DNA of 64,000 bases, taken from positions 128,001 through 192,000 of IMG/VR virus record IMGVR_UViG_3300045988_163643. One strand, written 5' to 3'. The notes under the pieces were generated by a model that was not told the DNA's origin, ran no database searches, and saw only the letters and a list, made by a program, of their open reading frames with translations. Position numbers and translations under genes: made by a program. This stretch comes from a virus. Shown in pieces: positions 4,053-58,923 of the stretch; the stretch's first letter is position 1, and every line of letters starts with the position of its first letter.

Positions 4053-4254
4053 TAATTTGCTCCCTATGTAAGTAAATTGCATAGCAAATCCTTTTAATTG
4101 CTGGAAACTCCTAAAGCTCAATTCACTACAACGTAAGGTTAAATCCTAAGCGTGAATGTTACGAAAGTAGAAAAAAGTAATTGAGATTACCCAAGGTTAA
4201 ATCCTAAAGGTGAATAAATGGACAATCAGCAGGTAAGATTTATATTTATTTTAC

Positions 4255-4283
4255 TTTACTTTTAATAATTAAATTTGTATAAT
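4255..4283 (+). promoter_or_regulatory. sigma-A-like promoter for the intron T1 endonuclease ORF (TTTACT-N17-TATAAT)
   Basis: Homologous to the consensus promoters in introns M1 and M4, with 17-nt spacing. Confidence 0.45.
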
Positions 4284-4307
4284 TTAAGTAAATGGAGGTG
4301 AAATTGA

Positions 4308-5249
4308 ATGGCTCAATATAATAAGAAATGGACTAAAGAAAGTATGATTAAATACATCGAAGATAATGGGTATAAATTTATTAGATTTGCTGAAGATTTT
4401 AGAGGATGCGAAACAAGAATCATTATATGGTGTAAAAATTCAAATCACAAACCTTATGAAGTTAGATTTCAACATTTTAAAAATAATAGACGATGTAAAC
4501 AATGTAGAAAAGAAGAAAAGGTAAAATGGACTAAAGAAAATATAATTAAACATGTTGAAAATAATGGATATAAATTTATTAATTTTATTGAATTTGATTA
4601 TTCTAAATCAATAATTGAAATTTGGTGTGGAAATCCTAATCACAAACATAAAATTTCTACATTTAACGATTTTCATCAAAATGGAAGATGTAGAGAATGT
4701 TCTAATGAAAATAAAATTGTATGGACTGAAGAATCTATAATAGACTATATAAAGAAAAATAATTATGAGTTTATAGAATTTATAAATTATAAAGGATATT
4801 TAAGCAGAATAAAAATAAGATGTAATAAACATAATTCTTATGAAGTTGATTTTGGAAATTTTAAAAATGGATTTAGATGCCCATATTGTAATATGGAAAA
4901 CATTGAATCAAAAGGTGAAAAAGAAGTTGAAAGAATATTAAATAAATTTCATATAGATTATAAAAAACAATATTCTTTTGAAGATTGTAAATATAAAAAA
5001 TATTTGCCATTTGATTTTTATTTACCTCAATATAATACATTGATTGAATATGATGGAGAATATCATTTTCAAATAATAGAACATTTTGGTGGATTTAATA
5101 AATTTGTTAACACAAAAATAAGAGATACTATTAAGAATATTTATTGTAAGAATAATAATATAAAACTTATAAGAATTCCTTATTGGGAATTTAATAATAT
5201 AGAAAATATATTAAACAAAGAGTTAAAAGTAAAAAATAAATATGAATAA
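4308..5249 (+). CDS. intron-encoded putative homing endonuclease: 3 zinc-ribbon modules + Vsr/DUF559-like PD-(D/E)XK nuclease domain
   Basis: RBS GGAGGTGA. Three repeats of the form ...WC-x4-H-x12-15-RC-x2-C. The C-terminus has FDFYLP..IEYDGEYH..LIRIPYWE. The stop overlaps the conserved core GAAUAAACUUCAACGAC. Confidence 0.7.
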   Translation: MAQYNKKWTKESMIKYIEDNGYKFIRFAEDFRGCETRIIIWCKNSNHKPYEVRFQHFKNNRRCKQCRKEEKVKWTKENIIKHVENNGYKFINFIEFDYSKSIIEIWCGNPNHKHKISTFNDFHQNGRCRECSNENKIVWTEESIIDYIKKNNYEFIEFINYKGYLSRIKIRCNKHNSYEVDFGNFKNGFRCPYCNMENIESKGEKEVERILNKFHIDYKKQYSFEDCKYKKYLPFDFYLPQYNTLIEYDGEYHFQIIEHFGGFNKFVNTKIRDTIKNIYCKNNNIKLIRIPYWEFNNIENILNKELKVKNKYE

Positions 5250-5418
5250 ACTTCAACGACTATTCCGTAAGGAAGTAAAGTCACAAGCTATCGGTGGAAG
5301 AAATGGAGGATACCTAGAAATAGGTAGTGATATAGTCTGTTCTCATGTGAAAGCATGAGCAGTTTATATTGAATGAGTATAAACGATGTATGTGTAGCGA
5401 ACATATATGAACACAAAG

Positions 5419-5566: not shown

Positions 5567-5983
5567 TAACATATTATAAATATAATATAAAGCTTCGTAT
5601 ATACAGAAATGTGTATAGGACACAACTTTAATTGCAGGTAATCCCTAAAGCCTTACACCAAAACGGAAGGTGAAAACCTAAACGGCAATGGTACGAAAGT
5701 AGAAAAAACGTAAGGATGACATATGGTTAAATCCTAAGTGTTATAAATGATAATTTATATTATTATTTAAAATGGGTGTTCATGCAGGTAAGATTCTAAG
5801 TGATAATTTATCATATGAATAAACTTCAACGACTAGATAGGAATATCGTACACTCAAGCGAGTGGAAGTGGGTTGCCCTTAACAGGTAATGCTGAAGGTG
5901 AAGAAATAGTCTACTCTCATGTGAAAGCATGAGCAGTTCATAAGAGAACGTACATAATGTAGCGAATTATGTAGAATATAAGG
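5567..5983 (+). mobile_element. group I intron T2 (ORF-less, td-like family)
   Basis: The core is AAUUGCAGG...CCUUAC/GUAAGG...CAACGACUA...GAAAUAGUC. The terminal GUAGCGA hairpin is followed by GAAUAUAAGG. The 5' boundary is ambiguous (5567 or 5573). Confidence 0.7.
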
Positions 5984-10900: not shown

Positions 10901-13089
10901 AGTTAATAATTTAAAAAATTCTGCAATGGATAATGTTATTAGAGAATCTTTTGATAACATTAAAATACCTAATTTAAATAAACAACTAGAAGCAGTTAAA
11001 GATTTAATGTCACTTAAAAATATGGATACTAGTGGTATAGATGCCTTAATAGAAAGAACTAAAAAACTATCAAGCTTAAGCGTAGATAAAATAGGTCAAG
11101 AATTTAAGGAAATACAAAATGCACTTGGTAAAGAAATTAATTTACGTTTAGGTACTAGTGGTATTAAAGATATAGAATCTGCATTAAAAGTCATATTACA
11201 ATATAGAAATGAATTAAAAAATAAAATAGCAATTGAAACAGATTCATCAAAAGTAAAAGACCTTAATAGTCAATTAGAAAAAACTGAAAGCATAATAGAA
11301 AAACTTAAAGGTCAAACTAGTGGTGGACTTGGTGCAAGTTTAATTAGTGATGCCAACAATAATAACTTAAAACAATTAGAAGATACTGCTAATGGATTAA
11401 AGAAAACATTCTCTAATTTGGAAAGTGAAGTAAATAAATTAAACAACGAAGCATTGAATAAGGTTGATATAAGTCAATTAAGAGAAATGAATGAAGTTGT
11501 TAATGATGTAAAGAGAAATTTGGCATCTATCGGAGAAGGAAATGTTAATGTTGATTCAATAAATAAAACAGCACAAGACATAGAAAAATTAAAGAGATTA
11601 ATAGAAAATACTAAAAAAACAATTAGTGATATGAAATTAGAAGTTTCATTTAATATTAAATCAAATGAAGCAGAACAATATTTAGCAGGTTTTGAATCAG
11701 CTTTATTGAGGTTAGGTAAATCAACTAGTGGAATAAATGCTTTAAAGAGTGAATTTGAAAGTATAAAAAATTCAGCTAATGGAAATTTAAGTAGTGCCAT
11801 AAAAATGATTGATGACTTTATTAATAAATTGAAACAAATGGGTAGCAAACAAGGTTTAGGTAATATAAGTGGTACTATGTCTCAGTACAAACAATATACT
11901 AGAGAATTACAACAAGCCATGAGTGGGGCGTTAAAATCTAGTGGTTCTGATACGGCTAAAGGATTCGAACAACAAGCCGAACGAATAAAAAGTGCCATAA
12001 AACGTTTAGTTTCAAGTTTCAAAGAATCACAAAGAGAATCAGCTAATGCTTTTAATGGTAGTACATTTAGTAATTTCTCTTCTAAATATGAAGCTGAAAT
12101 AAACAAAGTTGAAAGAAGTATAAATAAATTTAAATCATCAATGCAAAACTTAGATAAAGCTGTAAACTTCAAAGGTTTTCAAACTGATTTAGGAAGAGGT
12201 TTATCTGAACAATTTGACCAAATAATGGCAAAAGCTGAACAATTAAGAGATAGACTAAAAAGTGCATTATCATCTGGTACTTTTGATATAAGTGAAATAA
12301 ATAAAATAAAAGATGAATTAAAACAAGTTGAGCAAGAGGCAGATTCATTAAAACAAAAATCTATAGTATTAAAATGTGCTGAAAGTATAACAGAATTAGA
12401 AAGACTTAGCAGTAAGATAAAAGATATAGGTGGAGACACATCAAAAATAGAAGAATTAAAAAATAAATTTGTTACACTTGGTACAGGTATAAGAGAAGGT
12501 ACTACTGGAATAGATGATGCAATTTCTAAAATGAAATCTTTATCTTCGGAAGCACAAAGAACTGCTAGTTCTTTTGAATCAACTGCTGGTAAAATAGGTT
12601 CTTTTGGTTCTAAAATACAAGGTTTCTTTAGTTCTATAAAGAATTCATTTAGTACTTTTACTATTGGTAATTTAATGGCTGATGGTATAAGCCGAGCTGT
12701 TTATGAAATAAAAGATACTATAACAGGTTTAGATGAAGCAATGTCTGATTTTAAAAGAGTTGCTCCTGATAACTTTAGTTTAAATACATCTAATTTACAA
12801 AGTGTTGCTAACGAAGCAAGAGAAATAGGTATTAGTGTTGGACAATCAGTAGAAGATGTTATTACTGGAATGAGTACTGCATTACAAGCAGGTGCAGGCG
12901 ATATTAAAACTGCTTCTGAAATAGCAAAAAGTTCTGCAATATTCCAAAATGTTACAGATATGTCAGCAAAAAGTGCTTCAAAAGCTGTTTCTTCAATGAT
13001 AAATCAATATTATGATATGGATTCAGCATTAAATCAAGTTGACCACGGTGTAGGTAAATCCGTAAAAGGATACAACAACTTAACAGAGG
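7974..13089 (+). CDS. tail tape measure protein, exon 1 of 5
   Basis: TTG start lies 7 nt after GGAGGTGA. The sequence is a long coiled-coil-type protein. Its last ~150 aa begin the TP901/PhageMin_Tail-type core (..VANEAREIGISVGQSVEDVITGMSTALQAG..). Confidence 0.8.
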
Positions 13090-13303
13090 TAACATACAGC
13101 CTCCTATATTAAGTAATTAGTATAGAAAATTTCTTTAATTGCTGGAAACTCCTAAAGCCTTACAAACTACAACGTAGAGTTAAAACTCAAGCGTGAATGT
13201 GGCGAAAGCAGAAAAAATTGTAAGGATTACCCAAGGTTAAATCCTAAAGGTGAATGAATGGACAATCAGCAGGTAAGATTCTAAATTAAATTATTTTAAA
13301 TAT

Positions 13304-13332
13304 TTGACTTTTAATAATAAAATGAGTATAAT
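13304..13332 (+). promoter_or_regulatory. near-consensus sigma-A promoter TTGACT-N17-TATAAT inside intron M1
   Basis: Hexamers are at 13304-13309 and 13327-13332, 23 nt upstream of the endonuclease ATG. Confidence 0.6.
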
Positions 13333-13355
13333 ATAAGTAAAGTGAGGTGATTAAA

Positions 13356-14252
13356 ATGGGAAGAAAATGGGATTATGAAAAAGTTAAAGAATATATAGAA
13401 AATTTTAAATATAAATTATTAAGTGAGGAATACAAAAATAATAAAATTAAATTATTAATTAAATGTGATAAAGGACATGTATTTAAATGTTCATTTCATA
13501 ATTTTAAAGATAGAGACTCTAGATGTCCGTATTGTAATGGTAAAAAAATAACATATGATATGGTCAAGTTTTACATTGAATCTTACAATTATAAATTATT
13601 AAATGAAGATTATGTTGATAATTCTACTAAATTGTTAATAGAATGCGATAAAGGGCATACGTTTAAAATGCGATGGAATAATTTTCAACAAGGGCAAAGA
13701 TGTCCTATATGTGATAAAAGTCATAAAAAGAATTATAAAGATGTAAAAATAGAATTAGAAAAAGAAGGTTATGAATTAATATCGAGCAAATATAAGAATA
13801 GTAAAGAAAAATTATTAATCATGTGTCCTAATGGTCATACATATGAAACAAGTTGGAATAATTTTCAAAGAGGAAGAAGATGTCCAATGTGTAATATAAC
13901 AAAAGGAGAAAAAAAGATAAAAGAAATATTAGATAATAATAAAATAGAATATATGTATAATAAAAAATACTTTAAAGATTTAAAAGGAATAAATGGAGGA
14001 TTATTAAGACCAGACTTTGTAATACCATCATTAAGAATATGGATTGAATATGATGGTATACAACATTTTGAACCTAAAGATTTTGCTGGTAAAGGTGAAG
14101 AATGGGCTAAAAAAGAATTCGTTTTAAGAAAAATGAAAGATAAAATAAAAGATGAGTATGCTAAAGAACATGATTGGAAATTAATAAGAATACCTTATTG
14201 GGAATATGATAATATAGAAAACATATTAATAAAAGAATTAAATTTAAAATAA
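13356..14252 (+). CDS. intron-encoded putative homing endonuclease (3 zinc-ribbon modules + Vsr/DUF559-like nuclease)
   Basis: ATG 13356 follows GAGGTGA. Modules have the form LLI(K/E/M)C..GH..-x10-15-RCP.C. The C-terminus has RPDFVIP..IEYDGIQH..LIRIPYWE. Confidence 0.7.
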   Translation: MGRKWDYEKVKEYIENFKYKLLSEEYKNNKIKLLIKCDKGHVFKCSFHNFKDRDSRCPYCNGKKITYDMVKFYIESYNYKLLNEDYVDNSTKLLIECDKGHTFKMRWNNFQQGQRCPICDKSHKKNYKDVKIELEKEGYELISSKYKNSKEKLLIMCPNGHTYETSWNNFQRGRRCPMCNITKGEKKIKEILDNNKIEYMYNKKYFKDLKGINGGLLRPDFVIPSLRIWIEYDGIQHFEPKDFAGKGEEWAKKEFVLRKMKDKIKDEYAKEHDWKLIRIPYWEYDNIENILIKELNLK

Positions 14253-14431
14253 TTTAACAAGAATAAACTTCAACGACTAGAACGCAAGTTCGTAGGGTGT
14301 AAGCGATTGACACTCGAAATGGGAAACAATCAAAAACGGGTTGATGATATAGTCTGCTCTCATGGGAAACCATGAGCAGTTTTCATATAAAGAAAACGGA
14401 TTAAGTGTAGCGAACTTAATTGAACAAGAGG

Positions 14432-14578
14432 CAATGGACTTGGTCAATTATGCAGGCAATAATTTTGCGATTTCATCTGATGGTGTAACAGAAGCATTAC
14501 AACGTGGTGGTTCTGTATTATCTAACTATGGAGTAGATTTAAAAGATTCTATCGCAATGATAACTGGGGCAAATGAGT
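14432..14578 (+). CDS. tape measure protein, exon 2 of 5
   Basis: Encodes (A)MDLVNYAGNNFAISSDGVTEALQRGGSVLSNYGVDLKDSIAMITGANE, the typical central block of the tape-measure core domain. Confidence 0.75.
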
Positions 14579-14914
14579 TAAATATGGCTCTTTTATATAG
14601 TAATATATAATTAAATTTTCTTGAATTGACAGGGACTCCCTTAGAGCTTTACACACTAACTTATGATAGAAATATACATAAGGGCATTGCTAACCACAAT
14701 GATATAGTAAAAGAGGTAAAGATTGGGAAATCTGCATCTAAGATTCTAAGTTGTGTAAACAATATGAATAAAGTTCAACGACTAAGTATCCTAGTAGTCT
14801 AGGTAGTGGGAAACCTCCTATTGAAGGAGGAAGATATAGTCTCAACGTTTAGTGAAAGCTAAAGAAGTTCATAAGAGAACTGCGTAAGAATAACGAACTT
14901 ATGTGAAGATATTG
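14579..14914 (+). mobile_element. group I intron M2 (ORF-less)
   Basis: P1 is GAGU|UAAAUAUGGCUC with a canonical U at -1. P7 is CAACGACUA...GAUAUAGUC. The terminal hairpin has an AUAACGA loop. The 3' end is G14914 by homology, or alternatively G14908; both preserve the frame. Confidence 0.75.
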
Positions 14915-17900: not shown

Positions 17901-20900
17901 TGATGAAATATTAAAGAAGTTAAAAGAAACAGATGGGCAAGAAAGTAATCCTAAAATAAACGTAGAAGGAGATACTTCAGGTGCCGAGAAAGTAAAAAAA
18001 GAAGTAGATGAAGTAGGCAATAAAAAAGGGACAGCTAAAGCTGATGTAGATGGAGATACTTCAGGAGCTGAAAAAGTAGAAAAAGAAGTAGACAATGTAA
18101 ATGGAAAAAAAGGTACTGCTGAAGCAAATGTGGATGGCAATACTGAAGGTGCTGAAAAAGTAGAAAAAGAAGTAGACAATGTAAATGGGAAAAAAGGTAC
18201 TGCTAATGTAGATATTAAAGCAGATACCTCTGAAGCTGAAAAAGCTAAAAAAGAAGTAGATAATTTAGCAGTCAACAAAAATGGTACAGTTACTTTATTA
18301 GTAAATGGTCAAGAAAAAATAGCTGAAGCTAAAATTAATAAAGGTCAATTAGAAGTAAATGGTCAAGCAGTTACAACTATTTCTGTTAACGGTAAAGACC
18401 AATTACCAATAGCTATTAATGAAAAAGGTCAATTAGAAGTAAATGGTCAAGCTATAACTAATATAGATGTTAATGGTAAAGACCAATTAACTTTAGCTAG
18501 AAATGAAAAAGGTCAATTAGAAGTAAATGGTCAAGCTATAACTAATATAGATGTTAATGGTAAAGACCAATTAACTTTAGCTAGAAATGAAAAAGGTCAA
18601 TTAGAAGTAAATGGTCAAGCTATAACTAATATAGATGTTAATGGTAAAGAAAAAGTTTCTGAAGCAAAAAAAGAAGTTGATGATTTAACCAAAGATAATA
18701 AAAATGTTAGTATTAATATTGATGTTTCATTAAAAGAAACTGTTGGTGAAATATTATCAAGATTTGGATTAAATAAGAAAACAGAAAATGTTGAAATTAA
18801 TGTAACATGTAATGATAATGCAACTCCAGTATTAGAAAAAATAATGGCAAGACAAGATAAAACTATACAAATAAAAGTAGATTGTCAAGATAATGCAACT
18901 TCTAAAATAAACAATATAACTAAAATAGGAAATAAAACTGTAACAGTTACAATAAATTGTCAAGATAATGCAACTTCTAAAATAAATAGTATAGCTAGTA
19001 TGGGTAATAAATCTGTAACAGTTACTATAAATTGTCAAGACAACGCAAGTTCTACAATAAATAGAGTTACAAGTGCACCTTCTTCTAAAGCAATAAATGT
19101 TGTAGTAACTTGTACAAATGGTGGAGCAGTTCTTAATACTCTTTCTCAATTAGCTAGTAAAGTAATACCTAGTAAAAAATTTACTATAAATTGTACAGAT
19201 AGTGCTAGTAGTGTAGTAAGTAGAGTTAATGGTTTAAAAATATCTGATAAGAAATTTACTATAAATTGTACAGATAATGCAACTGCTAAAATAAATAAGG
19301 TTATTAGTAAAAAAATACCAAATAAATCATTTACTATAAGTTGTAATGATAATGCTAGTGGTAAATTAAGTAGTATTATAAGTAAAATAAGTAATATTCG
19401 TAGTAAATCAGTAACAATTACTACTAATCATGTAAGTACAGGTAAGAGTTCATCTATTGGTGAACCAACAGTTGTTGATTTACAACCTCAACCATTTAGT
19501 GCTCAAGCTTCTAATCCTCAAGTACAATCATTAGGAGAACAAGTTCAAGTATTAAATGATAGTGTGCAACAACAAACTGACAATAACAATGAAGTTAGTG
19601 TAATGGCTAAGAAGACATATAAAGCTAATATTGATACAGGTTTAACAGTAAGTGCAGTTAAATATAATATTGATTTATTAACTAACATGACTAATATGCT
19701 TAAAAAATTAGGAACTCAAGTTGATATATTAAAAGCTAAACAAGAAAGAACTTGGGGTACTGCAAGTGCTAAGTTACTTAGAAATCAAATTTCTTTACTA
19801 ACTAAACAACAAGATTTAACTAAAATAAATATTAAAAACATGGAAGGTATGGCTAAAAAACTTAAAGGTAGTTTACAAAAACAAGGATTTAAGTTTAAAG
19901 ATGACGGAACAATAAGTAATTACAATAGTAAACTTGTAAAAATGCAAAAAAATGTTGAAAGTTTAGAGAAAGCTGAAAAAGCACTAGAAGACCAAATAAG
20001 TAAAACTGAAAAACAAATTTCAAAATCTGAAAAGAAATCTTCAAGTAAGAAAAAATCAACTAGTAAGAAAAAGAAAAGTACTAGTAAGAAAAAGAGTACG
20101 AGCAAAAAGAAGAAAACTTCAAGTAAAAAGAAATCAACTAAGAAAAAGAGCACTAAGAAGAAAACTACTAAGAAGAAGAGTGCTAGTAGAAGCAATAGAA
20201 AAACTACATCAAGTAAAGCTAGTAAAAAGAAGACTACTAAGAAGAAAAAATCAACTAGTAAGAAAAAGAGTACATCAACTAAGAAGAAGAGTACTAAAAA
20301 GAGTACTAAAAAGAAAACTACTTCTAAGAAGAAATCAACCACTAAGAAGAAGAGTACATCTTCAAGCAAGAAATCAAAAGCAACTAAAGCATTAGAAAAG
20401 AAAAAGAGCGGATTAGAAAAGAAAAAGGATGCAATAAGCAAACAATTAGAAAAAGCACAAAAAGAATTATCAGAAACTCAAAGCAAATTAAATGAATATT
20501 ATAATTTACAATTTAGTGAAATTCCTGAAGCTCAACAACAATGGGAAGAATATGCTAATGCAATAGCTGAAGCTAAAGCAGAAATAATTAGATGTGAATT
20601 AGAAGCTAAAACATTCTTTAAGACAATTAAGATGGAAATGAAAGATGCTATGATTAGCAGAAATGAAACTTGGGCAGATACATTTATGTTGAAGGCTGAT
20701 TTAAGTAGTTGGTCTAAAGCAATAGGATATATTAAAGAAGCTAATAAATTATTAGCAAAAAATCAACAACATCAACAATCTAAATTAGAAACAGCTCAAG
20801 CAAGAGCGGAAGATAATAAAGCATTTTTAAAGAAACAAGGATTTAAATTTGATAAAAATGGATATGTAACAGGTGCTGAAAAAACTTTACAAAAACTTAA

Positions 20901-22402
20901 AAAGAAGAAATCATCACAAGAATACGATGCTATAAAAGAAGCATTTGATAGTTACGTTGATGATATGTATGAAAATATTCCTAAAGCTGAAAATGAATGG
21001 TGGAAATTAGAACAAGAAATAAAAGAAAATGAAAGACAAATAAAAGAAACTACTAAATCTATGAATGATTTAGTTAATTCAGCTAAAGTAGATAAATTAA
21101 CTAGACAATTTGATGTACTTTCAAATACTTTAGATATATTAGACCTTAAAATGGAACGTGCATATGGAGCTAATAAAATAGACTATATGAAACAACAACT
21201 TGATATATTATCTAATATGAAAAGTAAGAATCAAGAAATCATTAATCAAAATACTGAGTTATTAAATAATAGTAAGAAACAATTAGTTAAATATGGTGTT
21301 ACATTTGATGAAGATGGTAATATAGATAATCTATCAAAAGCATTGAAAAAATTAGATAATCTACAAGATATGGAAGATTTAAAAGATTTAGCTGATGAAT
21401 ATAATGATTACAAAGATTCAATAGATGATGCTAGTAAATCAATTGAAGAAGAAACTAATAAACAACTTGAATTAAAAGATTCAATGATGGAAATTAGAGA
21501 AGAAATGAGAAAACTTAGAGATGATGCATGGGTTAAAACTTATGAAAATGGTCTAAAAGTTATTCAAAATCGTATTGATACAATAGATTCTTTATTAGAT
21601 TTGGAAGATGAAAATCAATTTGGTTTACTAAATCAAAAAATTGAAGAATATAAGAATTTAACTAAAGCGACTGAGGATAGTTTGGCTTATCAAAAACATA
21701 GAAAAATCACTATGCAAAAAACATTGATTGATTATGGTTTCACTATTAATGATGATGGTACAATAGATGGAACTGCTAATAAATTAGAACAACTTAAAAA
21801 TACATTATCTGAAACTGAATTTGGTATAGTAAGTGATACATTAGAAGATTATTTTGATACTGCTTTAGATACAATTCCTGAATTAGAAAGAGAATTAATA
21901 AAATATCAAAAAGATTTAAAAGATATACAAAATACTAAACTAGAAAAGACTAAAACTATTGAAGAAAAAATTACTGAAATATATAATGATGAAATAGATA
22001 AAAGAACTAAAAAGATACAAGAAGAAGCAGAAACACAAACTAAAGCACTTAATAAAGCCAAAGAATCTTATCAGAGATGGAGAGACGAAGTTGACTATAA
22101 AGATGATTATAATAAACAATTAAAAACTGTTGAAGATTTACAAAAGAAAATAGAAATAGCAAAACGTGATGACAGCTTAACTGGACAAAAACGTTTAGCT
22201 GATTTGATGAAAGAATTAAAAGAAGAACAAGAAAATCTTGAAGATTTAGTTCAAGACAAAATAGATTCAGATATAAATAACATGTTTGATGACCAAATAG
22301 ATAAAATAGAAGAAAATTCTGATGAAGAAGTTAAGAATTTGGAAAAAACATGGTCAGAAAGCAAAATAGCTGAAATGGTTAAACAAGCACTTGATACTGG
22401 AG
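14915..22402 (+). CDS. tape measure protein, exon 3 of 5
   Basis: Continues the core (..LQDPARIGNGLKSIAINLSG..), then a TM-like Gly/Ala/Val segment, several repeat arrays and a long coiled coil. Confidence 0.8.
17968..18270 (+). repeat. in-frame tandem repeat, 84-nt (28-aa) unit, about 3.6 copies (GDTSGAEKVxKEVDxVxxKKGTAxAxVD)
   Basis: Units start at 17968, 18052, 18136 and 18220. Confidence 0.85.
18340..18650 (+). repeat. in-frame tandem repeat, 84-nt (28-aa) unit, about 3.7 copies (KGQLEVNGQAITNIDVNGKDQLTLARNE)
   Basis: 18421-18504 and 18505-18588 are identical. A third copy is identical until about 18648. The first copy has diverged. Confidence 0.9.
18808..19430 (+). repeat. eight ~25-aa in-frame repeats, each starting with a single Cys (C(Q/T/N)DNA(T/S)..I......K.(V/F)T(V/I)(T/N)(I)N)
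   Basis: Read directly from the translation of exon 3. Confidence 0.8.
20020..20425 (+). repeat. Lys/Ser/Thr low-complexity polybasic tract (~130 aa) inside the tape measure protein
   Basis: Translation reads KSEKKSSSKKKSTSKKKKSTSKKKSTSKKKKTSSKKKSTKKKSTKKKTT... Confidence 0.9.
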
Positions 22403-22749
22403 TAAATTAGCTCCTTTTACTAAGTAATTAGTATTAAAACTCATTGAATTGCTGGAACTTCCTAAAGCTAACTAAACTACAATATGGCTAGAAATGGCGA
22501 ATATGAATGTGGCGAAAGCAGAAAAAATTAGTTAGATATTCATATGGTTAAATCCTAAGTGAATGTAAATGGATAATCAGCAGGGAAGTCCCTTTAAAAT
22601 GGGAAACCTTCAACGACTATATATACTAGTAGTCTAGTTAGTGGTGAGCATCCTTATAGGATGATGATATAGTCTACTCTCATGTGAAAGCATGAGCAGT
22701 TCATAAGAGAACGGTATAAGGTTTAACGAACTTTATATGAATGTTAAGG
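22403..22749 (+). mobile_element. group I intron M3 (ORF-less)
   Basis: P1 is GGAG(U)AAAUUAGCUCC. Internal helix is CUAACUAA/UUAGUUAG. P7 is CAACGACUA...GAUAUAGUC. The hairpin with a UUAACGA loop is followed by GAAUGUUAAGG. Confidence 0.8.
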
Positions 22750-22840
22750 TGTTTACAGATATCGATGGGAATATAAAAACTCTTCAAACAGCATTAATGG
22801 ATTTTGCTAATGAAAGTTCTGATTATTTTGGAGTTATGGG
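22750..22840 (+). CDS. tape measure protein, exon 4 of 5 (91-nt micro-exon)
   Basis: This is the only open frame: (V)FTDIDGNIKTLQTALMDFANESSDYFGVM(G). It is flanked on both sides by introns. Confidence 0.7.
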
Positions 22841-23051
22841 TAATGTTGCCCTAGTCGTAGAGTAATTTGCGACTGAAAATAGATTTAATTGCAGGTAATT
22901 CCTAAAGCCTTACACCACAAGTATTCTGAAAAGAGATACTGAAGGTACGAAAGTAGAAAAAACGTAAGGATGAATATAAGGTTAAACCCTAAGTATTCGT
23001 AATAATGGATGTTCATGCAGGTAAGATTCTAAATTAAATTATTTTAAATAT

Positions 23052-23080
23052 TTGACTTTTAATAATAAAATGAGTATAAT
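23052..23080 (+). promoter_or_regulatory. near-consensus sigma-A promoter TTGACT-N17-TATAAT inside intron M4
   Basis: Hexamers are at 23052-23057 and 23075-23080. The segment is 83/84 identical to the M1 promoter segment. Confidence 0.6.
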
Positions 23081-23102
23081 ATAAGTAAAGCGAGGTGATT
23101 AA

Positions 23103-24431
23103 ATGGCAAAAAGAAAAAGATATACATATCAAGATGTTAAAAATATTGTTGAAAATGAAAATTATGAATTAATAAGTACAGAAAATGAAATTATTGATGA
23201 AAAGGGATTTGTTAAAACATCAACTAAAATAACAGTATGGTGTAAAAATGAAAATCATAATTATATAAAACCTCAATTAAGTAAGTTTCTCAAAGGGGGT
23301 AGATGTGGAAAGTGCAGAAATGATAATAAAAAACTTGATTATAAATATGTAAAAGAATATGTTGAATCATTTGGATATAAATTATTATCAAAAGAGTATA
23401 AAAATAATTCAACGGATTTGTTAATTGAATGTCCATTAGAACATAAGTTTAAAATGATTTTTAATAATTTTAAAAAAGGACAAAGATGTCCCAAATGTGG
23501 TGAAATAAAAAGAAGAGAAAAAAGAACGATATGGAATAAAGAAAAAATAATTAATTTTGTGAAAAATAGTAATTATGAATTTATCAAATTTGTTAAATTT
23601 GACAAATTAAACTCAAGAATATTAATAAAATGTAATAATAAAAAACATGAGTCATATGAAGTTACTTTTGCTAATTTTAAAAATGGAAAAAGATGTCCGT
23701 ACTGTTCTAATCATGTAAAATTTGATTATAAATATGTAAAAGAATATATTGAATCATTTGGATACAAGTTATTATCAAAAGAATATAAAAATACAAATGA
23801 ATATATTTTAATAAAATGCCCTGATGAAAATCATAAACCTTATTTAGTTAAATTTTCTTCTTTTAAAAATCAAGAAACTAGATGTCCTTATTGTCAAAAT
23901 AAAAAAAGAGGATTATATAGAAAGTTTGATTATAAATATGTAAAAGAATATGTTGAATCATTTGGATATAAATTGTTATCAAAAGAATATAAAAATTGTG
24001 ATGAAAAACTAAAAATAGAATGTAATAAAGGACATATTTATGAAGTATCTTTTTATTGTTTTAAAAATTTAAATACAAGATGTCCTATATGTAATGAGAG
24101 CAAGGGAGAAATAAAAATAAGAGAGATACTTAATAAATATGATATAAAATTTACTCCTCAAAAGAAATATAGTAAATTAATTGGAATTAAAGGCAGACAA
24201 TTGTCTTATGATTTTTATTTACCTTTATATAACACATTGATAGAATATCAAGGAGAATATCATGATGGTACGGGATATAATCAAACTAAAGAAAAATTTG
24301 AAACCCAAAAAGAACACGATAAAAGAAAAAGAAATTACGCTAAAGACAATAACATAAAATTATTAGAAATATGGTATTATGATTTTGATAATATAGAAAA
24401 TATATTAATAAAAGAATTGAATTTAAAATAA
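23103..24431 (+). CDS. intron-encoded putative homing endonuclease (5 zinc-ribbon modules + Vsr/DUF559-like nuclease)
   Basis: RBS GAGGTGA. Five ..C-x3-5-H-x12-17-C-x2-C modules. Three near-identical ~70-nt DNA repeats lie at 23337-23406, 23724-23792 and 23928-23996. The C-terminus has YDFYLP..IEYQGEYH..LLEIWYYDF. Confidence 0.7.
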   Translation: MAKRKRYTYQDVKNIVENENYELISTENEIIDEKGFVKTSTKITVWCKNENHNYIKPQLSKFLKGGRCGKCRNDNKKLDYKYVKEYVESFGYKLLSKEYKNNSTDLLIECPLEHKFKMIFNNFKKGQRCPKCGEIKRREKRTIWNKEKIINFVKNSNYEFIKFVKFDKLNSRILIKCNNKKHESYEVTFANFKNGKRCPYCSNHVKFDYKYVKEYIESFGYKLLSKEYKNTNEYILIKCPDENHKPYLVKFSSFKNQETRCPYCQNKKRGLYRKFDYKYVKEYVESFGYKLLSKEYKNCDEKLKIECNKGHIYEVSFYCFKNLNTRCPICNESKGEIKIREILNKYDIKFTPQKKYSKLIGIKGRQLSYDFYLPLYNTLIEYQGEYHDGTGYNQTKEKFETQKEHDKRKRNYAKDNNIKLLEIWYYDFDNIENILIKELNLK

Positions 24432-24607
24432 TTTAACAAGAATAAACTTCAACGACTAGAACGCAAGTTCGTAGGGTGTAAGCGATTGACACTCGAAAAG
24501 GTCTACCCTTAATATTAAGGTGAAGAAATAGTCTAGTCACTCTAGGAAACTAGGTGCTTAGAATTAACTAAGGTTTATAGTGTAGCGACTATAAATAAAT
24601 ATTAACG

Positions 24608-24917
24608 TGATAGCTTAAAGAAAGAATTATTAGACAATCTTAATGTAGCATTGGAAACTATGAAAGAACTTCAAAAAATGTCAGATAATTATACAGCTCC
24701 TAATATAGATTATAGTAATACGGTACTTCCAAAAGATAGTACTATTAATACTTCTCCACAAGTTTCTAGTAATGTTGAAACTAATAATATTACAATTGGA
24801 GATACAAATATTACAATTCAAGGTAGTGCAGATGATGTTACTTTAGGAAAAGTAGATGAAATGTTAAAAGATTACAAAGCAAGTATTTGTAAGGAAATTG
24901 TTAAAAATATGAAATAA
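24608..24917 (+). CDS. tape measure protein, exon 5 of 5
   Basis: Open frame to TAA 24915-24917. The five exons sum to 13,152 nt (4,383 aa with the chosen junctions). Confidence 0.7.
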
Positions 24918-46563: not shown

Positions 46564-47946
46564 ATGGCTACAGAAGGTAAAAAAATAAGTCAACTAACAG
46601 AAGTGTTAAGTGTTGACAAAGAAAATGACTATATAATTGTACAACGTGGAGCAGATAATAAAAAGTTAAAATTAGCCAATGTAATGACAACAGATAATAT
46701 GGGTGACAATTATGTTGATTTAAAATCATATGAAGATAAAAGTGAATTTAGATTAATTATAAATGATGATGGAAAAGTTCAAGTATTTCCAAAGGAATGT
46801 GTTGAGGGTCATACTTATGCTGAAAATGATAATTTACAAATGCCTTTAAAATTAGCTAGTTATATAGGTAATTCTCAAACTGCATTATCTACTGTTAATA
46901 ATGGAGGTATTGTTATTAATCAAATTTATGGTGGTGGAGATTTAGTACCAACATCAACTTTACAAGCACCTAGCGTTAGTCATAGTTTTGTTGAATTATA
47001 CAATCGTAATGTTGTAGATATTAATTTAAAAGGATTATATTTACATTATAAAGGTAATGATGAAACTGTTTGGAAAACATTAGCGTTAAGAGGACTTTTA
47101 CCAGCACACACTGCTTTTTTAATTAGAGGTAAACAACATGGAGATTTAATGAGTGATTTAGTAAGATGTAAAATATACGATTATGACCAAGAATGGATAG
47201 ATTCTGATAAAAATGAACCTATTGCATTTAGTAGAAATGGTATGTCAATGTTTTTATCAACTAACTCAACTCCGCCTAATGCTAATGAAAACCCTAATAG
47301 ATATCTTATAACAACTGATACTTCAGGTGTATCAACATTATCATATGTCAATGGATATTATGTAGATTTATTAGGTGTGGGTAGTGCTGATGGAACAAAA
47401 AACCCAGTTGCTTATGAAAAATTCTATTGGACTTGTATGGATAAAGATACTGCAATAAGAAGAATAGATTTTTATAATAATAAAAATAACAAATATGATA
47501 CAAAAGCTATAAATTATAAAACTTGTAATATAGAACATTATAGACCAAGAAGTTTAAGAGATGGAATTTGGGATAACTATTGTGATAAAGCAACTATAAA
47601 TGAAAACATACCTAATCTTATAGATATAACTTTTGGTGAACAACCTACAACAAGACTTTTTACATGGCAATCTGTTTTAACAGATAATGGTTGTGTAAAA
47701 CTTAGAAGAATAAAAGATAAAAGTGGAGTAGCAGTAACTGAAAATTGGAAAAAATATGAAAGTGAACGTGAAATAGTTAATAATCATGGTACATTTATGA
47801 CAATACATAGAACTAAAATAACCAATATAACACCTGGTTTATACGAATATCAATGTGGAGAAGAAGGTTATTGGTCAGATGTACAAATGATAGAAATGAG
47901 AGAATATACAGATAGTAGTACTATTAAAATGCTTTGGACTACGGAT
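46564..47946 (+). CDS. LTD + metallophosphoesterase protein, exon 1 of 4
   Basis: Lamin-tail-like VELYNRNVVDINLKGLYLHY. The exon ends ..KMLWTTD (phosphoesterase motif I Asp) directly before an in-frame UAA that opens the intron. Confidence 0.7.
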
Positions 47947-48270
47947 TAAATATTAGTCCCTATGTAAAGTGATTTATATAGCAAACCTCTTGAATTGCTG
48001 GGAAACCCTTAGAGCCTTAATACCACAATATAAGAGAAATCATTATATGAAGGTTTGAAAAGTTTAAGGATTGGGTAATCAGCAGGTAAGATTCTAAGTT
48101 GTATAAACAATATGAATAAACTTCAACGAACAAGTATCCTAGTAGTCTAGGTAGTGGGAGGGGTCTCGAAAGAGATTGTGATATGCTCTACTCTCATGTG
48201 AAAGCATGAGCAGTTTTCTTTGAGTAAGAAAACGGGTAGAATAGTAACGATATTCTATTGAATATAAAGG
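47947..48270 (+). mobile_element. group I intron Met-1 (ORF-less; variant P7)
   Basis: P1 is GGAU|UAAAUAUUAGUCC with a canonical U at -1. The core is GAAUUGCUGG... The P7 strands are changed to GAACA / UGCUC. The GUAACGA hairpin is followed by GAAUAUAAAGG. Confidence 0.7.
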
Positions 48271-48394
48271 CAACAAGGTTTCACTCAACCTGAGTATGAA
48301 GCATGGAGAACTTGTGTTAAAGCTATGCAAACTAGAACTGATTTTTATAATAATTATGGCTTACCTGTATTTGATTTTCATTTGAACACTGGAG
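48271..48394 (+). CDS. metallophosphoesterase, exon 2 of 4
   Basis: Encodes QQGFTQPEYEAWRTCVKAMQTRTDFYNNYGLPVFDFHLNTG(D). Confidence 0.7.
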
Positions 48395-48759
48395 TAACAA
48401 ATTAAGCTCCCTATGTAAATAAATTGCATAGCAAACCCTTTGAATTGCTTGTAATCCCTAAAGTCAACTAAACTACAACGTGATTGGAAACGATGAGCGT
48501 GAATGTGGCGAAAGCAGAAAAAATTAGTTGAATTGTATATGGTTAAATCCTAAGTACTATAAACAATGGGTGTCTAGCAGGTAAGATTCTAAGTTACTAT
48601 AAGTAATATGAATAAACTTCAACGACTATATATACTAGTAGTCTAGTTAGTGGAGGGCATCTCTTTATGGGATGATGATATAGTCTACTCTCATATGAAA
48701 GTATGAGCAGTTCATAAGAGAACGGTATAAAGTATAACGAACTTTATATGAATATTAGG
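48395..48759 (+). mobile_element. group I intron Met-2 (ORF-less)
   Basis: P1 is GGAG(U)AACAAAUUAAGCUCC. P2 is CUAUG..CAUAG. Internal helix is UCAACUAA/UUAGUUGA. P7 is CAACGACUA...GAUAUAGUC. The AUAACGA hairpin is followed by GAAUAUUAGG. Confidence 0.8.
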
Positions 48760-48857
48760 ATATTTCACAAAATGCATCTAATTTATTTGAATGGTTGTAT
48801 TACACTGATTATGGTGAAGAATTTTGTAGAAACATTCCTCACTTAACTGCATGTGGT
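48760..48857 (+). CDS. metallophosphoesterase, exon 3 of 4
   Basis: Encodes (D)ISQNASNLFEWLYYTDYGEEFCRNIPHLTACG, which completes motif II (GD) and starts motif III. Confidence 0.7.
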
Positions 48858-49171
48858 AAATGTTAGCCACCTTTACATAGTGATATGTAATGAAAAACTC
48901 ATTGAATTGCTGGAAAGTCCTAACGTAAAGACGAGGATAATCAGCAGGGAAGTCCCTTTAAAATGGGAAACCTTCAACGACTATCCCTTAGATGTTGAAA
49001 TACATCAATAGGAGTACGGCTCAAGTGATTGGAGTGGGTGAAAATCCCTTAAATGGAAGTGGTGAGCATCTCAATAGAGATGAAGATATAGTCTACTCTC
49101 ATGTGAAAGCATGAGCAGTTTTCATGTAAAGAAAACGGATTAAGTGTAGCGAACTTAATTGAATATAAAGG
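48858..49171 (+). mobile_element. group I intron Met-3 (ORF-less, shortened 5' half)
   Basis: P1 is GUGGU|AAAUGUUAGCCAC. P7 is CAACGACUA...GAUAUAGUC. The GUAGCGA hairpin is followed by GAAUAUAAAGG. A junction shifted by -1 at both ends gives the same protein. Confidence 0.75.
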
Positions 49172-50185
49172 AATAATGACCTCGTTGATAAAAAATATGG
49201 TTTTGCTTATGAACATTATGCTACATATGAAAATGTACCTAAATTAAATGATTATCATAAAGAAGTTCAAGCAACAACAGATTTTCCTATGGTATCTACA
49301 TATTCTTTTGATTTAGGATTTACTCATTTTATATGTATAAATTCAAATCAAGAACAAATGTATAATGATTATGGTATAAATCAAACAGAATTTTTATTAA
49401 AACAAGCTTACTTCCTAGATAGAGATTTATGGAAGGTTAGTAAAAGAACTACAAAACCTAAATGGGTAATTGTATATGCACATTTAAGTCCTTTTACTGT
49501 AACAAGAGCAAAAAGATTACAACATTGGATACCTATACTTGAAAAATATAATGTAGATTTATTCTTATGTGGTCATAACCATACATATTCAAGAAGTATA
49601 CCAATAAAATGTGGATATGAAAAATCTGCATATGCAGATATGATAAATGAAAAAAATTATAATACCTATGTACCAAAAAGTGGTAAAAATTACACTTTAG
49701 TAAATGAAACAAAATTAAGTGGTAGTGAGATAACTAGAAGTGCTAACATATCTCAAGGTGTTTATTATGTGATGTTCCAAGCAGGTGGTGCTAAACAAAG
49801 TGGTAAAGAAAAAGCTATTGATTTAAGTACTATGACATTCTTAAATAGCACTGGTGGAACAGTAACAAGTGGTACTGAATATACTAAACATTTCCATAGT
49901 GGAACAAATAGACCTTGGTGGTATGAATATACTAGCTCTTTACCAGTACAACCTTGTTTTGCAACTTTAGATATTTCACCAACATCAATAAAAATGAGTA
50001 TGAATTATGTTAAAGAAGTAGAAGCTATAGATAAAGAAACTGGCGTAATGACTGTAGATAAATACGACCCAAATAAACATACAATTGTTAACTTTGATAA
50101 TTTAACAATAAATTATTCAGATAGAAATCCAGCTTATAGAACTGGAGTATCTGCTCCTTATTATGACGAGAATAAAAATTATTAA
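49172..50185 (+). CDS. metallophosphoesterase, exon 4 of 4
   Basis: Starts NNDLV (motif III reads G-N-N-D across the junction). Later motifs are VIVYAHLSP (motif IV) and LFLCGHNHTYSRS (GHxH, motif V). Stop is at 50183-50185. Confidence 0.75.
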   Translation, partial: NNDLVDKKYGFAYEHYATYENVPKLNDYHKEVQATTDFPMVSTYSFDLGFTHFICINSNQEQMYNDYGINQTEFLLKQAYFLDRDLWKVSKRTTKPKWVIVYAHLSPFTVTRAKRLQHWIPILEKYNVDLFLCGHNHTYSRSIPIKCGYEKSAYADMINEKNYNTYVPKSGKNYTLVNETKLSGSEITRSANISQGVYYVMFQAGGAKQSGKEKAIDLSTMTFLNSTGGTVTSGTEYTKHFHSGTNRPWWYEYTSSLPVQPCFATLDISPTSIKMSMNYVKEVEAIDKETGVMTVDKYDPNKHTIVNFDNLTINYSDRNPAYRTGVSAPYYDENKNY

Positions 50186-54104: not shown

Positions 54105-54556
54105 TAGATAATACAGGAGCATTGAAATATGATGTAGATATAGAAGTTGACCCTGAACATTTCAATACTGCCGATTCAGTATTATGGACTAGAATTAGAG
54201 AATTATTCTATAACGATATAGTTGCTGAATATAATAATATGAGAAATCAAAACTTAACACCTGAAAAAATATATGAAAGTGTATTTACAAATCAAATAGA
54301 AAAAATACCTGAAAGTCAATATAATCTTAGTACACAAAAGAAATATCTTGATACAGGTGAAAATATTATGATGTCTAATGGTAACAGATATTATAATTTG
54401 AAACGTTGGATAAAAGAAAGATTTATATATTGTGATACTTTATTTGATTACACTCCTACAACTGCTAAGTATGTAACTGTACGTTCAGGAGTAGAAGGTA
54501 AGGCTTATTTGGATATAGAAACTTATTATCCTATGTATATAACTATAGAATGGAGG
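54105..54556 (+). CDS. CotH-like/LRR protein, exon 2 of 3
   Basis: Joins exon 1 as GGG T|TA GAT (..TAFG-L-DNTGALKYDVDIEV..). The alternative 3' end is 54576. Confidence 0.6.
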
Positions 54557-55018
54557 AAACAATATTCCTCGTACATAGAGAAATCTGTGTAGGACACAAC
54601 TTTAATTGCAGGTAATGGGTAAAGCTCTACACCACAATATATCTGAAAAGAATATATGAAGGTACGAAAGTAGAAACAACGTAGAGATTCTCATACGGTT
54701 AAATCCTAAGTGAGAAGTGATTAGATTCACACAATCCCTGTTCATGCAAGGAAGTTCCTAAGTGATAATCTTGTATCATATGGAAAACCTTCAACGACTA
54801 TCCTGGAAAGATAAGTGAAATCCTTATCAATAGGAGTACGGCTCAAGCGATTGGAGTGGGTGAAAATCCCTTAAATGGAAGTGGGTTGCCCTTAACAGGT
54901 AATGCTGAAGGTGAAGAAATAGTCTACTCTCATGTGAAAGCATGAGCAGTTCTTTATTAAATTTTTAACATTTAATAAAGAACGATATGTATGTAGCGAA
55001 TACATATGAATACAAAGG
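54557..55018 (+). mobile_element. group I intron L1 (ORF-less, td-like family, closest to T2)
   Basis: The core is AAUUGCAGG...CUCUAC/GUAGAG...CAACGACUA...GAAAUAGUC. The GUAGCGA hairpin is followed by GAAUACAAAGG. An alternative boundary pair 54577/55017 also preserves the frame. Confidence 0.7.
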
Positions 55019-58867: not shown

Positions 58868-58887
58868 CAAGTGTAAAAGTCTTATTA

Positions 58888-58923
58888 TACCTATGAGAGT
58901 AAATACTTTCATAGGTATTTTTT
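58888..58923 (+). terminator. rho-independent terminator
   Basis: 9-bp stem TACCTATGA/TCATAGGTA followed by T6. Confidence 0.75.

What the first reader, a model, noticed from the sequence alone, without database searches (positions are those of the whole stretch)
48388..48762. Frame and motif continuity place the 5' splice site one nt upstream of the conserved U-G wobble in at least five introns
In ten related introns, the 3' end can be fixed by homology as the G lying 10-11 nt after the last hairpin. With that omega-G, introns T1 (4053), M1 (13090), M3 (22403), M4 (22841) and Met-2 (48395) keep the reading frame only if the exon ends at the G before the wobble U. The junctions are GGAG|UAAUUUGCUCC, GAGG|UAACAUACAGCCUC, GGAG|UAAAUUAGCUCC, GGG|UAAUGUUGCCC and GGAG|UAACAAAUUAAGCUCC. 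The strongest case is Met-2. GGA G + AT ATT recreates Gly-Asp-Ile, the invariant GD of metallophosphoesterase motif II. The canonical U(-1) junction joined to the same omega-G instead reads GGA GTA TAT TTC ACA AAA TGC ATC TAA, which ends in a stop. For T1 the canonical choice gives GGA GTA TAA. Introns M2, Met-1 and L0 fit the canonical U(-1). So either these ribozymes cleave next to a G-C pair with the wobble U as intron nucleotide +1 (all then start with UAA, as td does), or splice-site choice is unusual in some other way.
Basis: partly seen in the sequence, partly recalled or inferred. Interest (0 to 1): 0.7.

Follow-up and report, generated by a model that had tools for sequence, protein, structure and literature searches.

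The report
Phage introns spliced before wobble U
At least seven of the ten self-splicing group I introns in this phage's structural genes are cut one base earlier than the textbook rule (after a G, not after the U of the U·G pair), a rare exception so far reported only for a related class of transposon-borne introns (IStrons).

Summary
The window is an AT-rich phage structural region with ten related group I (IA2-like) introns. For Met-2 the spliced message must read GGA GAU AUU. Uninterrupted homologues all have NTGDI(S/A/T)QN, and no pairing of U(-1) with a terminal G restores it. Intron-less alleles in close relatives give the ligated-exon sequence for T1, T2 and M4, and the ligated-exon protein sequence for M1 and L0. 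In each case the wobble U is missing from the exon. Met-1 and M2 are canonical. Met-3 cannot be resolved.

This is not new in kind. Tourasse et al. 2014 showed by RT-PCR that group B (IS607-type) IStrons splice after a G, with the U of the U·G pair as the first intron base. The window's ribozymes are about 72% identical to the Clostridium phage c-st IStron and share its P1.

What is new:
- The shift occurs in ordinary endonuclease-bearing or ORF-less phage introns.
- Position -1 is A in two relatives outside the window.
- L0 has no wobble pair next to the splice site.
- Canonical and shifted introns sit within one gene.

The likely rule is cleavage about four base pairs above the P1 base.

The parts
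46564..47946 (+). Metallophosphoesterase gene, exon 1. It ends ...ACG GAU.
   Evidence: ORF list. The spliced ORF is open. The TDQQG motif is continuous with exon 2 in homologues.
47947..48270 (+). Intron Met-1, canonical. P1 is GGAU|UAAAUAUUAGUCC, with U(-1)·G and U(+1)-A.
   Evidence: Rfam 62.5 bits. Intron-less alleles L038, L021 and L007 read ...GAC|CAACAG. The boundaries cannot be slid.
48271..48394 (+). Exon 2 (124 nt). It ends GGA G.
   Evidence: Frame. Alignment with phage G gp352, crAss002, IAS virus and DAC22.
48395..48759 (+). Intron Met-2, the finding. It starts UAAC with the wobble U48395 as nucleotide +1 and ends at terminal G48759.
   Evidence: Rfam RF00028 hit 48363-48707, 65.1 bits. 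The junction GGAG|AUAUU restores the conserved NTGDISQN. No in-frame combination uses the wobble U as -1 with any terminal G between 48739 and 48789 (manual frame check; the shown rows list none).
48391..48410 (+). P1 of Met-2. GGAG plus U (48391-48395) pairs with the internal guide GCUCC (48406-48410). That is four Watson-Crick exon pairs followed by U(+1)·G.
   Evidence: Minimum-free-energy fold. The same P1 design occurs in T1, M1, M3 and in the c-st IStron.
48760..48857 (+). Exon 3 (98 nt). It begins AU AUU.
48858..49171 (+). Intron Met-3. The junction is ambiguous: 48858-49171 if canonical, 48857-49170 if shifted. Both give C-G-N-N-D.
   Evidence: Rfam 100.5 bits. GNNDL motif. Enumeration of junctions.
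49172..50185 (+). Exon 4 of the metallophosphoesterase gene.
   Evidence: Pfam Metallophos on the spliced product.
4053..5418 (+). Intron T1 in a tail-tube-like gene, shifted: GGAG|UAAUUUGCUCC ... CACAAAG|AUAAC. It carries an endonuclease-like ORF at 4308-5249.
   Evidence: Intron-less allele L056 reads AAAAAAGGAGATAACTATATA. There is only one G at the 3' end.
5567..5983 (+). Intron T2, shifted: AAAG|UAAC ... UAAGG|UUAUAC.
   Evidence: Intron-less alleles L046 and L028 read CAAAGTTATAC. Rfam 41 bits.
13090..14431 (+). Intron M1 in the tape measure gene, shifted: GAGG|UAACAUACAGCCUCC. It carries an ORF at 13347-14252.
   Evidence: Intron-less allele L059 encodes LTEAMDLV. Pfam PhageMin_Tail is continuous across M1 and M2.
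14579..14914 (+). Intron M2, canonical: GAGU|UAAAUAUGGCUC, with U(-1)·G and U(+1)·G.
   Evidence: Only the junction at U14578 keeps the frame with terminal G14914.
22403..22749 (+). Intron M3, shifted: GGAG|UAAAUUAGCUCC ... UUAAGG|UGUUUAC.
   Evidence: Rfam 91 bits. Frame. The junction Val codon is G|UG, G|UC or G|UA in relatives. 72% identity to the c-st IStron.
22841..24607 (+). Intron M4, shifted: GGG|UAAUGUUGCCC ... UUAACG|UGAUAGC. It carries an ORF at 23103-24431.
   Evidence: Intron-less alleles L044, L025, L012 and L033 read ATGGGTGAT. There is a single G at the 3' end.
54557..55018 (+). Intron L0: GGAGG|AAACAAUAUUCCUC ... CAAAGG|AAUCAG. Position -1 is G, paired with C. No U·G pair lies at -1 or +1.
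   Evidence: Intron-less alleles L069 and L070 read GAA TGG CGT AAT CAA (EWR|NQA). Rfam 38.6 bits. P1 fold.

Best explanation
These are functional group I (IA2-like) self-splicing introns of the same ribozyme lineage as the group B (IS607-type) IStrons. In this lineage the 5' splice site need not follow the U of a U·G pair.

Shown here:
- In seven of the ten window introns the exon ends in a G that is Watson-Crick paired with a C of the internal guide. These are T1, T2, M1, M3, M4, Met-2 and L0.
- In six of those seven the wobble U is intron nucleotide +1. In L0 it is absent.
- Each of these introns ends in a normal terminal G.

Inferred:
- Guanosine attacks the phosphate 5' of that U, and the G-terminated exon is then ligated after the terminal G.
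- The site is set by helix geometry. It lies after the third or fourth exon-guide base pair, counted from the P1/P2 junction, and one base pair below the loop-proximal U(+1).
- A G·U pair next to the scissile phosphate, on either side, probably helps but is not essential.
For: - Met-2: four uninterrupted homologues have NTGDI(S/A/T)QN exactly where GGA G|AU AUU is joined. No in-frame combination joins the wobble U to a terminal G near the 3' end (manual frame check; shown rows).
- Intron-less alleles in close relatives give the ligated exons directly: T1 GGAG+ATAAC, T2 AAAG+TTATAC and M4 GGG+TGAT, M1 TEAMD, L0 EWR|NQA.
- Intron T1b, found in a relative, has boundaries that cannot be slid. Its -1 is A and its +1 is U·G.
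- Across 15 insertion sites of the family, the -1 pair is G-C ten times, A-U twice and U·G three times, and it is always a standard pair. There are three or four exon pairs in every case.
- Exon flanks are synonymously recoded to fit the guide: CGT to AGG, GAA GCG to GAG GCA, and ACT GAC to ACG GAT.
- The M3 query is 72% identical over about 307 nt to the Clostridium phage c-st IStron. That IStron's P1 is AGAGG|UAAC...CAGCCUCC, and its host ORF stays open only if it is spliced after the G.
- Published experiments: RT-PCR of BcISt1 shows splicing after G, with the U as first intron base (PMC4227781). RNA-seq and library data show IS607 IStrons splicing precisely at the TGGG boundary.
Against: - There are no RNA data for this phage. 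Every junction is inferred from DNA and protein comparison.
- For introns ending in GG (Met-2, T2, M1, M3, L0), a junction one base to the left, with the first G as terminal G, gives the same mRNA.
- The ruler rule is a correlation among related introns. A more distant family member (L014) has seven exon pairs.
- The association between a purine at -1 and U(+1)·G (11 of 12, against 1 of 5 canonical introns) is not corrected for shared ancestry.
- Work on the Tetrahymena ribozyme (from memory) indicates that replacing the G·U pair lowers docking and chemistry, so efficient cleavage at a G-C pair needs an explanation that is still missing.
Confidence: 0.82

Rival explanations
1. The 5' splice site is canonical (after the wobble U) and exon ligation takes place one nucleotide downstream of the aligned G, so the intron ends in a base other than G.
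For: For T2, M3 and M4 the first 3' exon base is U, so this reading gives exactly the same mRNA as the shifted model.
Against: The terminal base would be A, U, C, U, U and A in the six introns, with no common identity. For Met-2 the invariant metal-binding Asp of NTGDI would become Val. For T1 and M1 the products GVN and TEVMD differ from the intron-less alleles GDN and TEAMD. The related BcISt1 ligated exons lack the U.
Confidence: 0.03
2. In the introns that end in GG, the first G is the terminal G and the exon ends one base earlier. For Met-2 that is A48393|G48394 ... G48758|G48759, so cleavage falls two pairs below the wobble.
For: It gives the same mRNA for Met-2, T2, M1, M3 and L0. One relative (L020) seems to use the first G of a GG pair.
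Against: It is impossible for T1, M4 and T1b, which have one G or boundaries that cannot be slid. It leaves only two or three exon pairs in P1. Homology with BcISt1 and the c-st IStron favours G|U.
Confidence: 0.08
3. A specialised docking mode: the U(+1)·G pair occupies the ribozyme's wobble receptor and the active site has shifted to the phosphate 5' of that U. The wobble would then still define the site, rather than a helix-length ruler.
For: U(+1)·G is present in 11 of 12 introns with a purine at -1, but in only 1 of 5 canonical relatives (AR9 intron; L014). Tourasse et al. raised the same question.
Against: L0 and its relative in L020 have fully Watson-Crick P1 helices with no wobble at -1 or +1, yet are conserved in intact genes. 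Canonical Met-1 and shifted Met-2 show no obvious class-specific differences in the J4/5 segment (my own reading).
Confidence: 0.3
4. The shifted introns are decayed, so the genes are broken or are not translated across the junctions.
For: None beyond the rule violation itself.
Against: All five or more exons of each gene stay open when joined. The hosts are tail tube, tape measure and virion phosphoesterase genes. The same introns and junctions are conserved in at least five related contigs, with synonymous change only. The catalytic motifs of the phosphoesterase are split across exons yet intact.
Confidence: 0.02

Closest known systems
Group B (IS607-type) IStron ribozymes: BcISt1 of Bacillus cereus, and CbISt3/4 of Clostridium botulinum phages c-st and D-1873 (Tourasse, Stabell and Kolstø 2014, PMC4227781)
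   Same: An IA2-type core about 72% identical to M3. P1 is GAGG|UAAC...GCCUC. The exon ends in G. The U of the U·G pair is the first intron base and lies next to the P1 loop. The intron ends in a terminal G. Splicing after G was shown by RT-PCR.
   Different: The window introns have no IS607 tnpA/tnpB and no long AU-rich inverted-repeat stem (the latter from my reading of the sequence; no repeat scan was run). Three carry zinc-finger endonuclease-like ORFs and seven are ORF-less. The 3' end is an A/U-rich tail ending in G or GG rather than CGG. Targets are not restricted to GG. In relatives -1 can be A, and L0 has no wobble.
Phage T4 td intron (IA2)
   Same: From memory: it starts with UAA, has a U(+1)·G pair just above the splice site, a short P1, and a P7.1/7.2 and P9.1/9.2 architecture. 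M2 and Met-1 have this canonical design.
   Different: td has the canonical U(-1)·G. In seven window introns that pair is replaced by G-C.
Bacillus phage AR9/PBS1 virion-protein introns (gene g205, annotated as a three-piece join)
   Same: 81% identical to Met-3 over about 160 nt. There are several introns in one structural gene. The intron starts UAA, with U(+1)-A.
   Different: By reading frame both AR9 introns use U(-1)·G, and the tail before the terminal G is much shorter (GAAG).
Staphylococcus phage Twort ORF142, three group I introns in one gene (Landthaler and Shub 1999, from memory)
   Same: Several self-splicing introns in one phage structural gene. Twort-like staphylococcal phages give many distant matches to M3.
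   Different: Canonical U·G at the splice site, as far as I recall. I did not test this here.
Fungal mitochondrial introns with C·G at the 5' splice site (Hur and Waring 1995, from memory)
   Same: A natural Watson-Crick pair at the cleavage site.
   Different: A pyrimidine (C) at -1 and no displaced wobble. Unrelated subgroup.

Membership tests
Group I intron (Rfam RF00028) | Conserved P3-P9 catalytic core recognised by the covariance model | tested here: met
   Met-1 62.5, Met-2 65.1, Met-3 100.5 and M3 91 bits, against a gathering score of 50. T2 41 and L0 38.6 bits, E about 1e-9 and 1e-8. The others share the same core motifs but are interrupted by ORFs.
Group I intron (Rfam RF00028) | Terminal G at the 3' end of the intron | tested here: met
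   All ten junctions are satisfied with a terminal G. T1, M4 and T1b allow no other choice.
Group I intron (Rfam RF00028) | 5' exon ends in U, which forms a U·G pair with the internal guide | tested here: not met
   Met in Met-1 and M2. Not met in T1, T2, M1, M3, M4, Met-2 and L0, where -1 is G paired with C. The literature treats this as an exception within group I, not as grounds for exclusion.
Group I intron (Rfam RF00028) | Self-splicing started by exogenous guanosine | not testable with these tools
   This needs in-vitro transcription and GTP labelling.
Group B IStron | Ribozyme of the BcISt1/CbISt lineage that splices after G, with the U·G pair shifted by one | tested here: met
   72% identity to the c-st IStron. 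Same P1. Shifted junctions. The c-st host ORF is open only with the shifted junction.
Group B IStron | IS607-type transposon (serine recombinase TnpA and/or TnpB) embedded at the 3' end of the intron | tested here: not met
   The intron ORFs hit only the CapR and treble-clef zinc-finger domains and sit in the P6 region. Seven introns have no ORF. These are therefore not IStrons.
Group B IStron | Insertion after GG-ending targets and a terminal CGG | tested here: not met
   M1, M4 and L0 end in GG. T1, T2, M3 and Met-2 end in AG. Relatives outside the window end in AA or GA. The 3' ends read AAG, AGG, ACG or UUG.

The most novel reading that the evidence does not exclude
This ribozyme lineage does not need a wobble pair at the reaction site at all. 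It picks the phosphate by measuring about four base pairs from the P1/P2 junction, so it can cleave after G-C, A-U or U·G. L0 has no wobble on either side. That tolerance would have let the same ribozyme colonise many new phage gene sites. It would also have let IS607 elements, which insert at GG, recruit it to form the group B IStrons. On this view the IStron ribozyme descends from ordinary endonuclease-bearing phage introns.
Probability: 0.35. Interest if true: 0.65.

Novelty: new member of a known kind. Interest (0 to 1): 0.5.

Why it matters
- **Annotation.** Tools and curators that place the 5' splice site after the wobble U will frameshift these genes by one base. Here that would break a tail tube gene, a 4,383-codon tape measure gene, a virion phosphoesterase gene and the gene interrupted by L0.
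- **Generality.** The shifted site was thought to be peculiar to IS607-associated IStrons and possibly linked to their GG target. Finding it in ordinary phage introns, with A as well as G at -1, makes it a property of the ribozyme.
- **Experimental material.** One gene carries near-identical ribozymes with a canonical site (Met-1) and a shifted site (Met-2). L0 has no wobble at all. Together they form a natural mutant series for the question Tourasse et al. left open: how is the site chosen?

Tried and rejected
- A whole-window Rfam scan found only three of the ten introns. The rest needed motif searches and sub-window scans.
- A megablast of the phosphoesterase region against phage records found only a 160-nt intron match to PBS1/AR9. 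The phage itself is not in that collection.
- A tblastn of the tail-tube-like protein against phages found nothing, and Pfam found no family for it.
- I considered a P1 redrawn so that the U of ACACU is -1 for Met-2. The downstream sequence is the P2 hairpin and does not pair, so I rejected it.
- I looked for 3' sites deeper in the exon that would rescue a canonical U(-1). They exist for T1 and L0 but delete residues that are present in the intron-less alleles.
- I looked for P10 pairing that could discriminate between the models. In these AU-rich loops the matches were weak and offset, so I did not use them.
- A look at a staphylococcal tail-tube intron was abandoned as too tangled to help.
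- Literature searches for other reports of a purine at -1 returned only the 2014 IStron paper.

Full report
**What the window is.** The window has 25-36% G+C, and every gene examined lies on the + strand. It is a phage structural region. It contains a tail-tube-like gene at 3908, a tape measure gene (7974-24917) with a Pfam PhageMin_Tail domain, and a virion metallophosphoesterase gene (46564-50185). The phage itself is not in the phage collection. Only a 160-nt stretch of intron Met-3 matches Bacillus phages PBS1 and AR9, at 81%.

**The ten introns.** Rfam finds three group I introns inside the phosphoesterase gene. Core motifs (TTCAACGACTA, GATATAGTCT, CTCTCATGTGAAAGCATGAGCAG) mark ten related introns in all.

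| Intron | Coordinates |
|---|---|
| T1 | 4053-5418 |
| T2 | 5567-5983 |
| M1 | 13090-14431 |
| M2 | 14579-14914 |
| M3 | 22403-22749 |
| M4 | 22841-24607 |
| Met-1 | 47947-48270 |
| Met-2 | 48395-48759 |
| Met-3 | 48858-49171 |
| L0 | 54557-55018 |

Scanned alone, M3 scores 91 bits, T2 41 bits and L0 39 bits. T1, M1 and M4 are long because each holds an ORF.

**Checking the observation at Met-2.** After the last hairpin comes GAAUAUUAGG, ending at G48759.
- Joining G48394 to A48760 gives GGA GAU AUU.
- I aligned the spliced protein with four uninterrupted homologues: phage G gp352, crAss002, IAS virus and DAC22 phosphatases. The three junctions fall in TDQQG (Met-1), NTGDI(S/A/T)QN (Met-2) and GNNDL (Met-3), with no residue missing or added.
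- Joining the wobble U to the same G gives GGA GUA UAU UUC ... UAA.
- My manual frame check found no G from 48750 to 48774 that restores the frame with U(-1), and the rows that were shown list no such combination.
- So the Met-2 message cannot contain the wobble U.

**Direct evidence from intron-less alleles.** An exact-pattern scan of IMG/VR with the P7-P9 core returned 45 loci. They include five close relatives of this phage. Relatives that lack a given intron show the ligated exons.

| Intron | Intron-less allele | Loci |
|---|---|---|
| T2 | CAAAG-TTATAC | L046, L028 |
| M4 | ATGGG-TGAT | L044, L025, L012, L033 |
| Met-1 | ACTGAC-CAACAG | L038, L021, L007 |
| T1 | AAAAAAGGAG-ATAACTATATA | L056 |
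| M1 | ACT GAA GCG ATG GAT (TEAMD) | L059 |
| L0 | GAA TGG CGT AAT CAA (EWR\|NQA) | L069, L070 |

T1 and M4 have a single G at the 3' end. For them, the only junction with a terminal G places the exon end at the G before the wobble U. M3 rests on reading frame and on a junction Val codon that reads GUG, GUC or GUA in different relatives.

T2 is also shifted. L0 is not canonical: its exon ends AGG and the intron starts AAAC. Met-3 gives C-G-N-N-D under either GGU|...GG|AAU or GG|U...G|GAAU, so sequence cannot decide it.

**The wider family.** L056 and L053 carry a different intron (T1b) 36 nt downstream of the T1 site, and the window itself is empty at that site. The boundaries ACAGGAA|UAAC...UAAGG|CAUUAAC cannot be slid, so -1 is A (paired with U), +1 is U\u00b7G, and the intron ends in G. 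Frame analysis of further sites gives:
- G(-1) in three more (L010, L026, L016);
- A(-1) in one more (L019);
- U(-1) in L014 and L042;
- two ambiguous cases (L011, L020).

The tabulated result covers 15 sites. The -1 pair is G-C ten times, A-U twice and U\u00b7G three times, and it is always a standard pair. There are three or four exon-guide pairs in every case. The +1 pair is U\u00b7G in 11 of the 12 introns with a purine at -1. It is U-A in most canonical ones, including AR9 g205 intron 2. Exon flanks differ synonymously between filled and empty alleles in the direction that pairs with the guide.

**What it is, compared with what is known.** A sensitive search places M3 closest to the group I part of the Clostridium botulinum phage c-st and D-1873 elements: 72% identity over about 307 nt, E = 3e-27.
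- The c-st element is followed by an IS OrfB transposase gene.
- Its ends read AGAGG|UAACUAACAG...CAGCCUCC and ...GCAACGG|UAAAG.
- Its host ORF stays open only when spliced after the G.
- M1 has almost the same P1.

Tourasse, Stabell and Kolst\u00f8 (2014, PMC4227781) describe these as group B IStrons.
- They note that the last exon base is G, whereas it is "virtually always a U (or exceptionally a C)" in thousands of group I introns.
- They report that the U\u00b7G pair is shifted by one pair relative to the splice site and lies next to a loop.
- By RT-PCR of BcISt1 they show the U is absent from ligated exons and present in full-length intron circles.

Later work on IS607 IStrons confirms precise splicing at the TGGG boundary. 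I found no other report of a purine at -1.

**Membership.** The window introns are group I introns. They are not IStrons. Their ORFs hit only CapR and treble-clef zinc-finger domains and sit in the P6 region, seven have no ORF, and the targets and 3' ends do not follow the GG/CGG rule. They belong to, or are sisters of, the ribozyme lineage that the group B IStrons use.

**How it most likely works.**
- Shown: the exon ends at a Watson-Crick-paired G, the wobble U is intron base +1, and the intron ends in G.
- Inferred: guanosine attacks 5' of that U. The site is fixed by P1 geometry, three to four pairs above the P1/P2 junction, rather than by a wobble at -1.
- The complementary pattern of wobble at -1 or at +1 suggests that a G\u00b7U pair next to the scissile phosphate helps (Fisher about 0.01, not corrected for ancestry).
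- L0 and a relative in L020 have fully Watson-Crick P1 helices in conserved, intact genes, so a wobble is probably not essential.

**Rivals.**
- A canonical 5' site with a non-G 3' end is excluded by Met-2, T1 and M1.
- A junction one base to the left remains possible for the introns ending in GG.
- Gene decay is excluded by conservation.

**Verdict.** It is a new occurrence of a rare, published and experimentally confirmed exception, not a new kind of ribozyme behaviour. Its value lies in extending the exception to ordinary phage introns, in adding A(-1) and a wobble-less case, and in providing natural canonical/shifted pairs for experiment.

Noticed in passing
window 4308-5249, 13347-14252, 23103-24431: The ORFs inside introns T1, M1 and M4 consist of repeated treble-clef zinc-finger/CapR modules. 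They share a C-terminal ...EYDGxxH...IRIPYWE... segment that looks like a nuclease. All three are inserted at the same point, after CAGCAGGTAAGATT, each with its own Shine-Dalgarno-like GGAGGTGA. They are probably homing endonucleases of a poorly described type.
   Followed up: partly
window 54545-54572 versus L069/L070; 13083-13089 versus L059; 47940-47946 versus L038: Exon codons next to filled insertion sites are synonymously recoded relative to empty alleles, so that they pair with the intron's guide sequence. Arg changes from CGT to AGG at L0, GAA GCG changes to GAG GCA at M1, and ACT GAC changes to ACG GAT at Met-1. This is either co-conversion during homing or selection for P1 pairing.
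   Followed up: partly
L056 2640-2758 and L053 850-940; the empty site in the window is near 5455: Relatives from another sample lack T1 but carry a different intron of the same family 36 nt downstream. It has A at -1. The tail-tube-like gene therefore has alternative insertion sites in different phages.
   Followed up: partly
L025, L044 (M3 site) and L007/L021/L038 (Met-3 site), L031 (Met-2 site): Introns that are ORF-less in the window are about 0.8-1.2 kb longer in some relatives, presumably because they carry an endonuclease ORF (distances). This shows ORF gain or loss within otherwise near-identical introns.
   Followed up: no
window 7974-24917: The tape measure gene is 4,383 codons in five exons and holds four introns. 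It contains a long Lys/Ser/Thr-rich low-complexity stretch (about 19900-20450) and repeated (V/I)DGxTxGAEKV and NGQ..V units.
   Followed up: no
window 46564-50185: The metallophosphoesterase has Q and N in place of the usual His residues in two motifs (TDQQG, GNND). Homologues in phage G and crAss-like phages share these substitutions. It sits among tail genes, which suggests a virion-associated enzyme.
   Followed up: partly
window 58884-58922: A weak Rfam match to S. aureus sRNA TEG147 (29 bits, below the gathering score). It is a GC-poor hairpin followed by a run of U, most likely just an intrinsic terminator.
   Followed up: no
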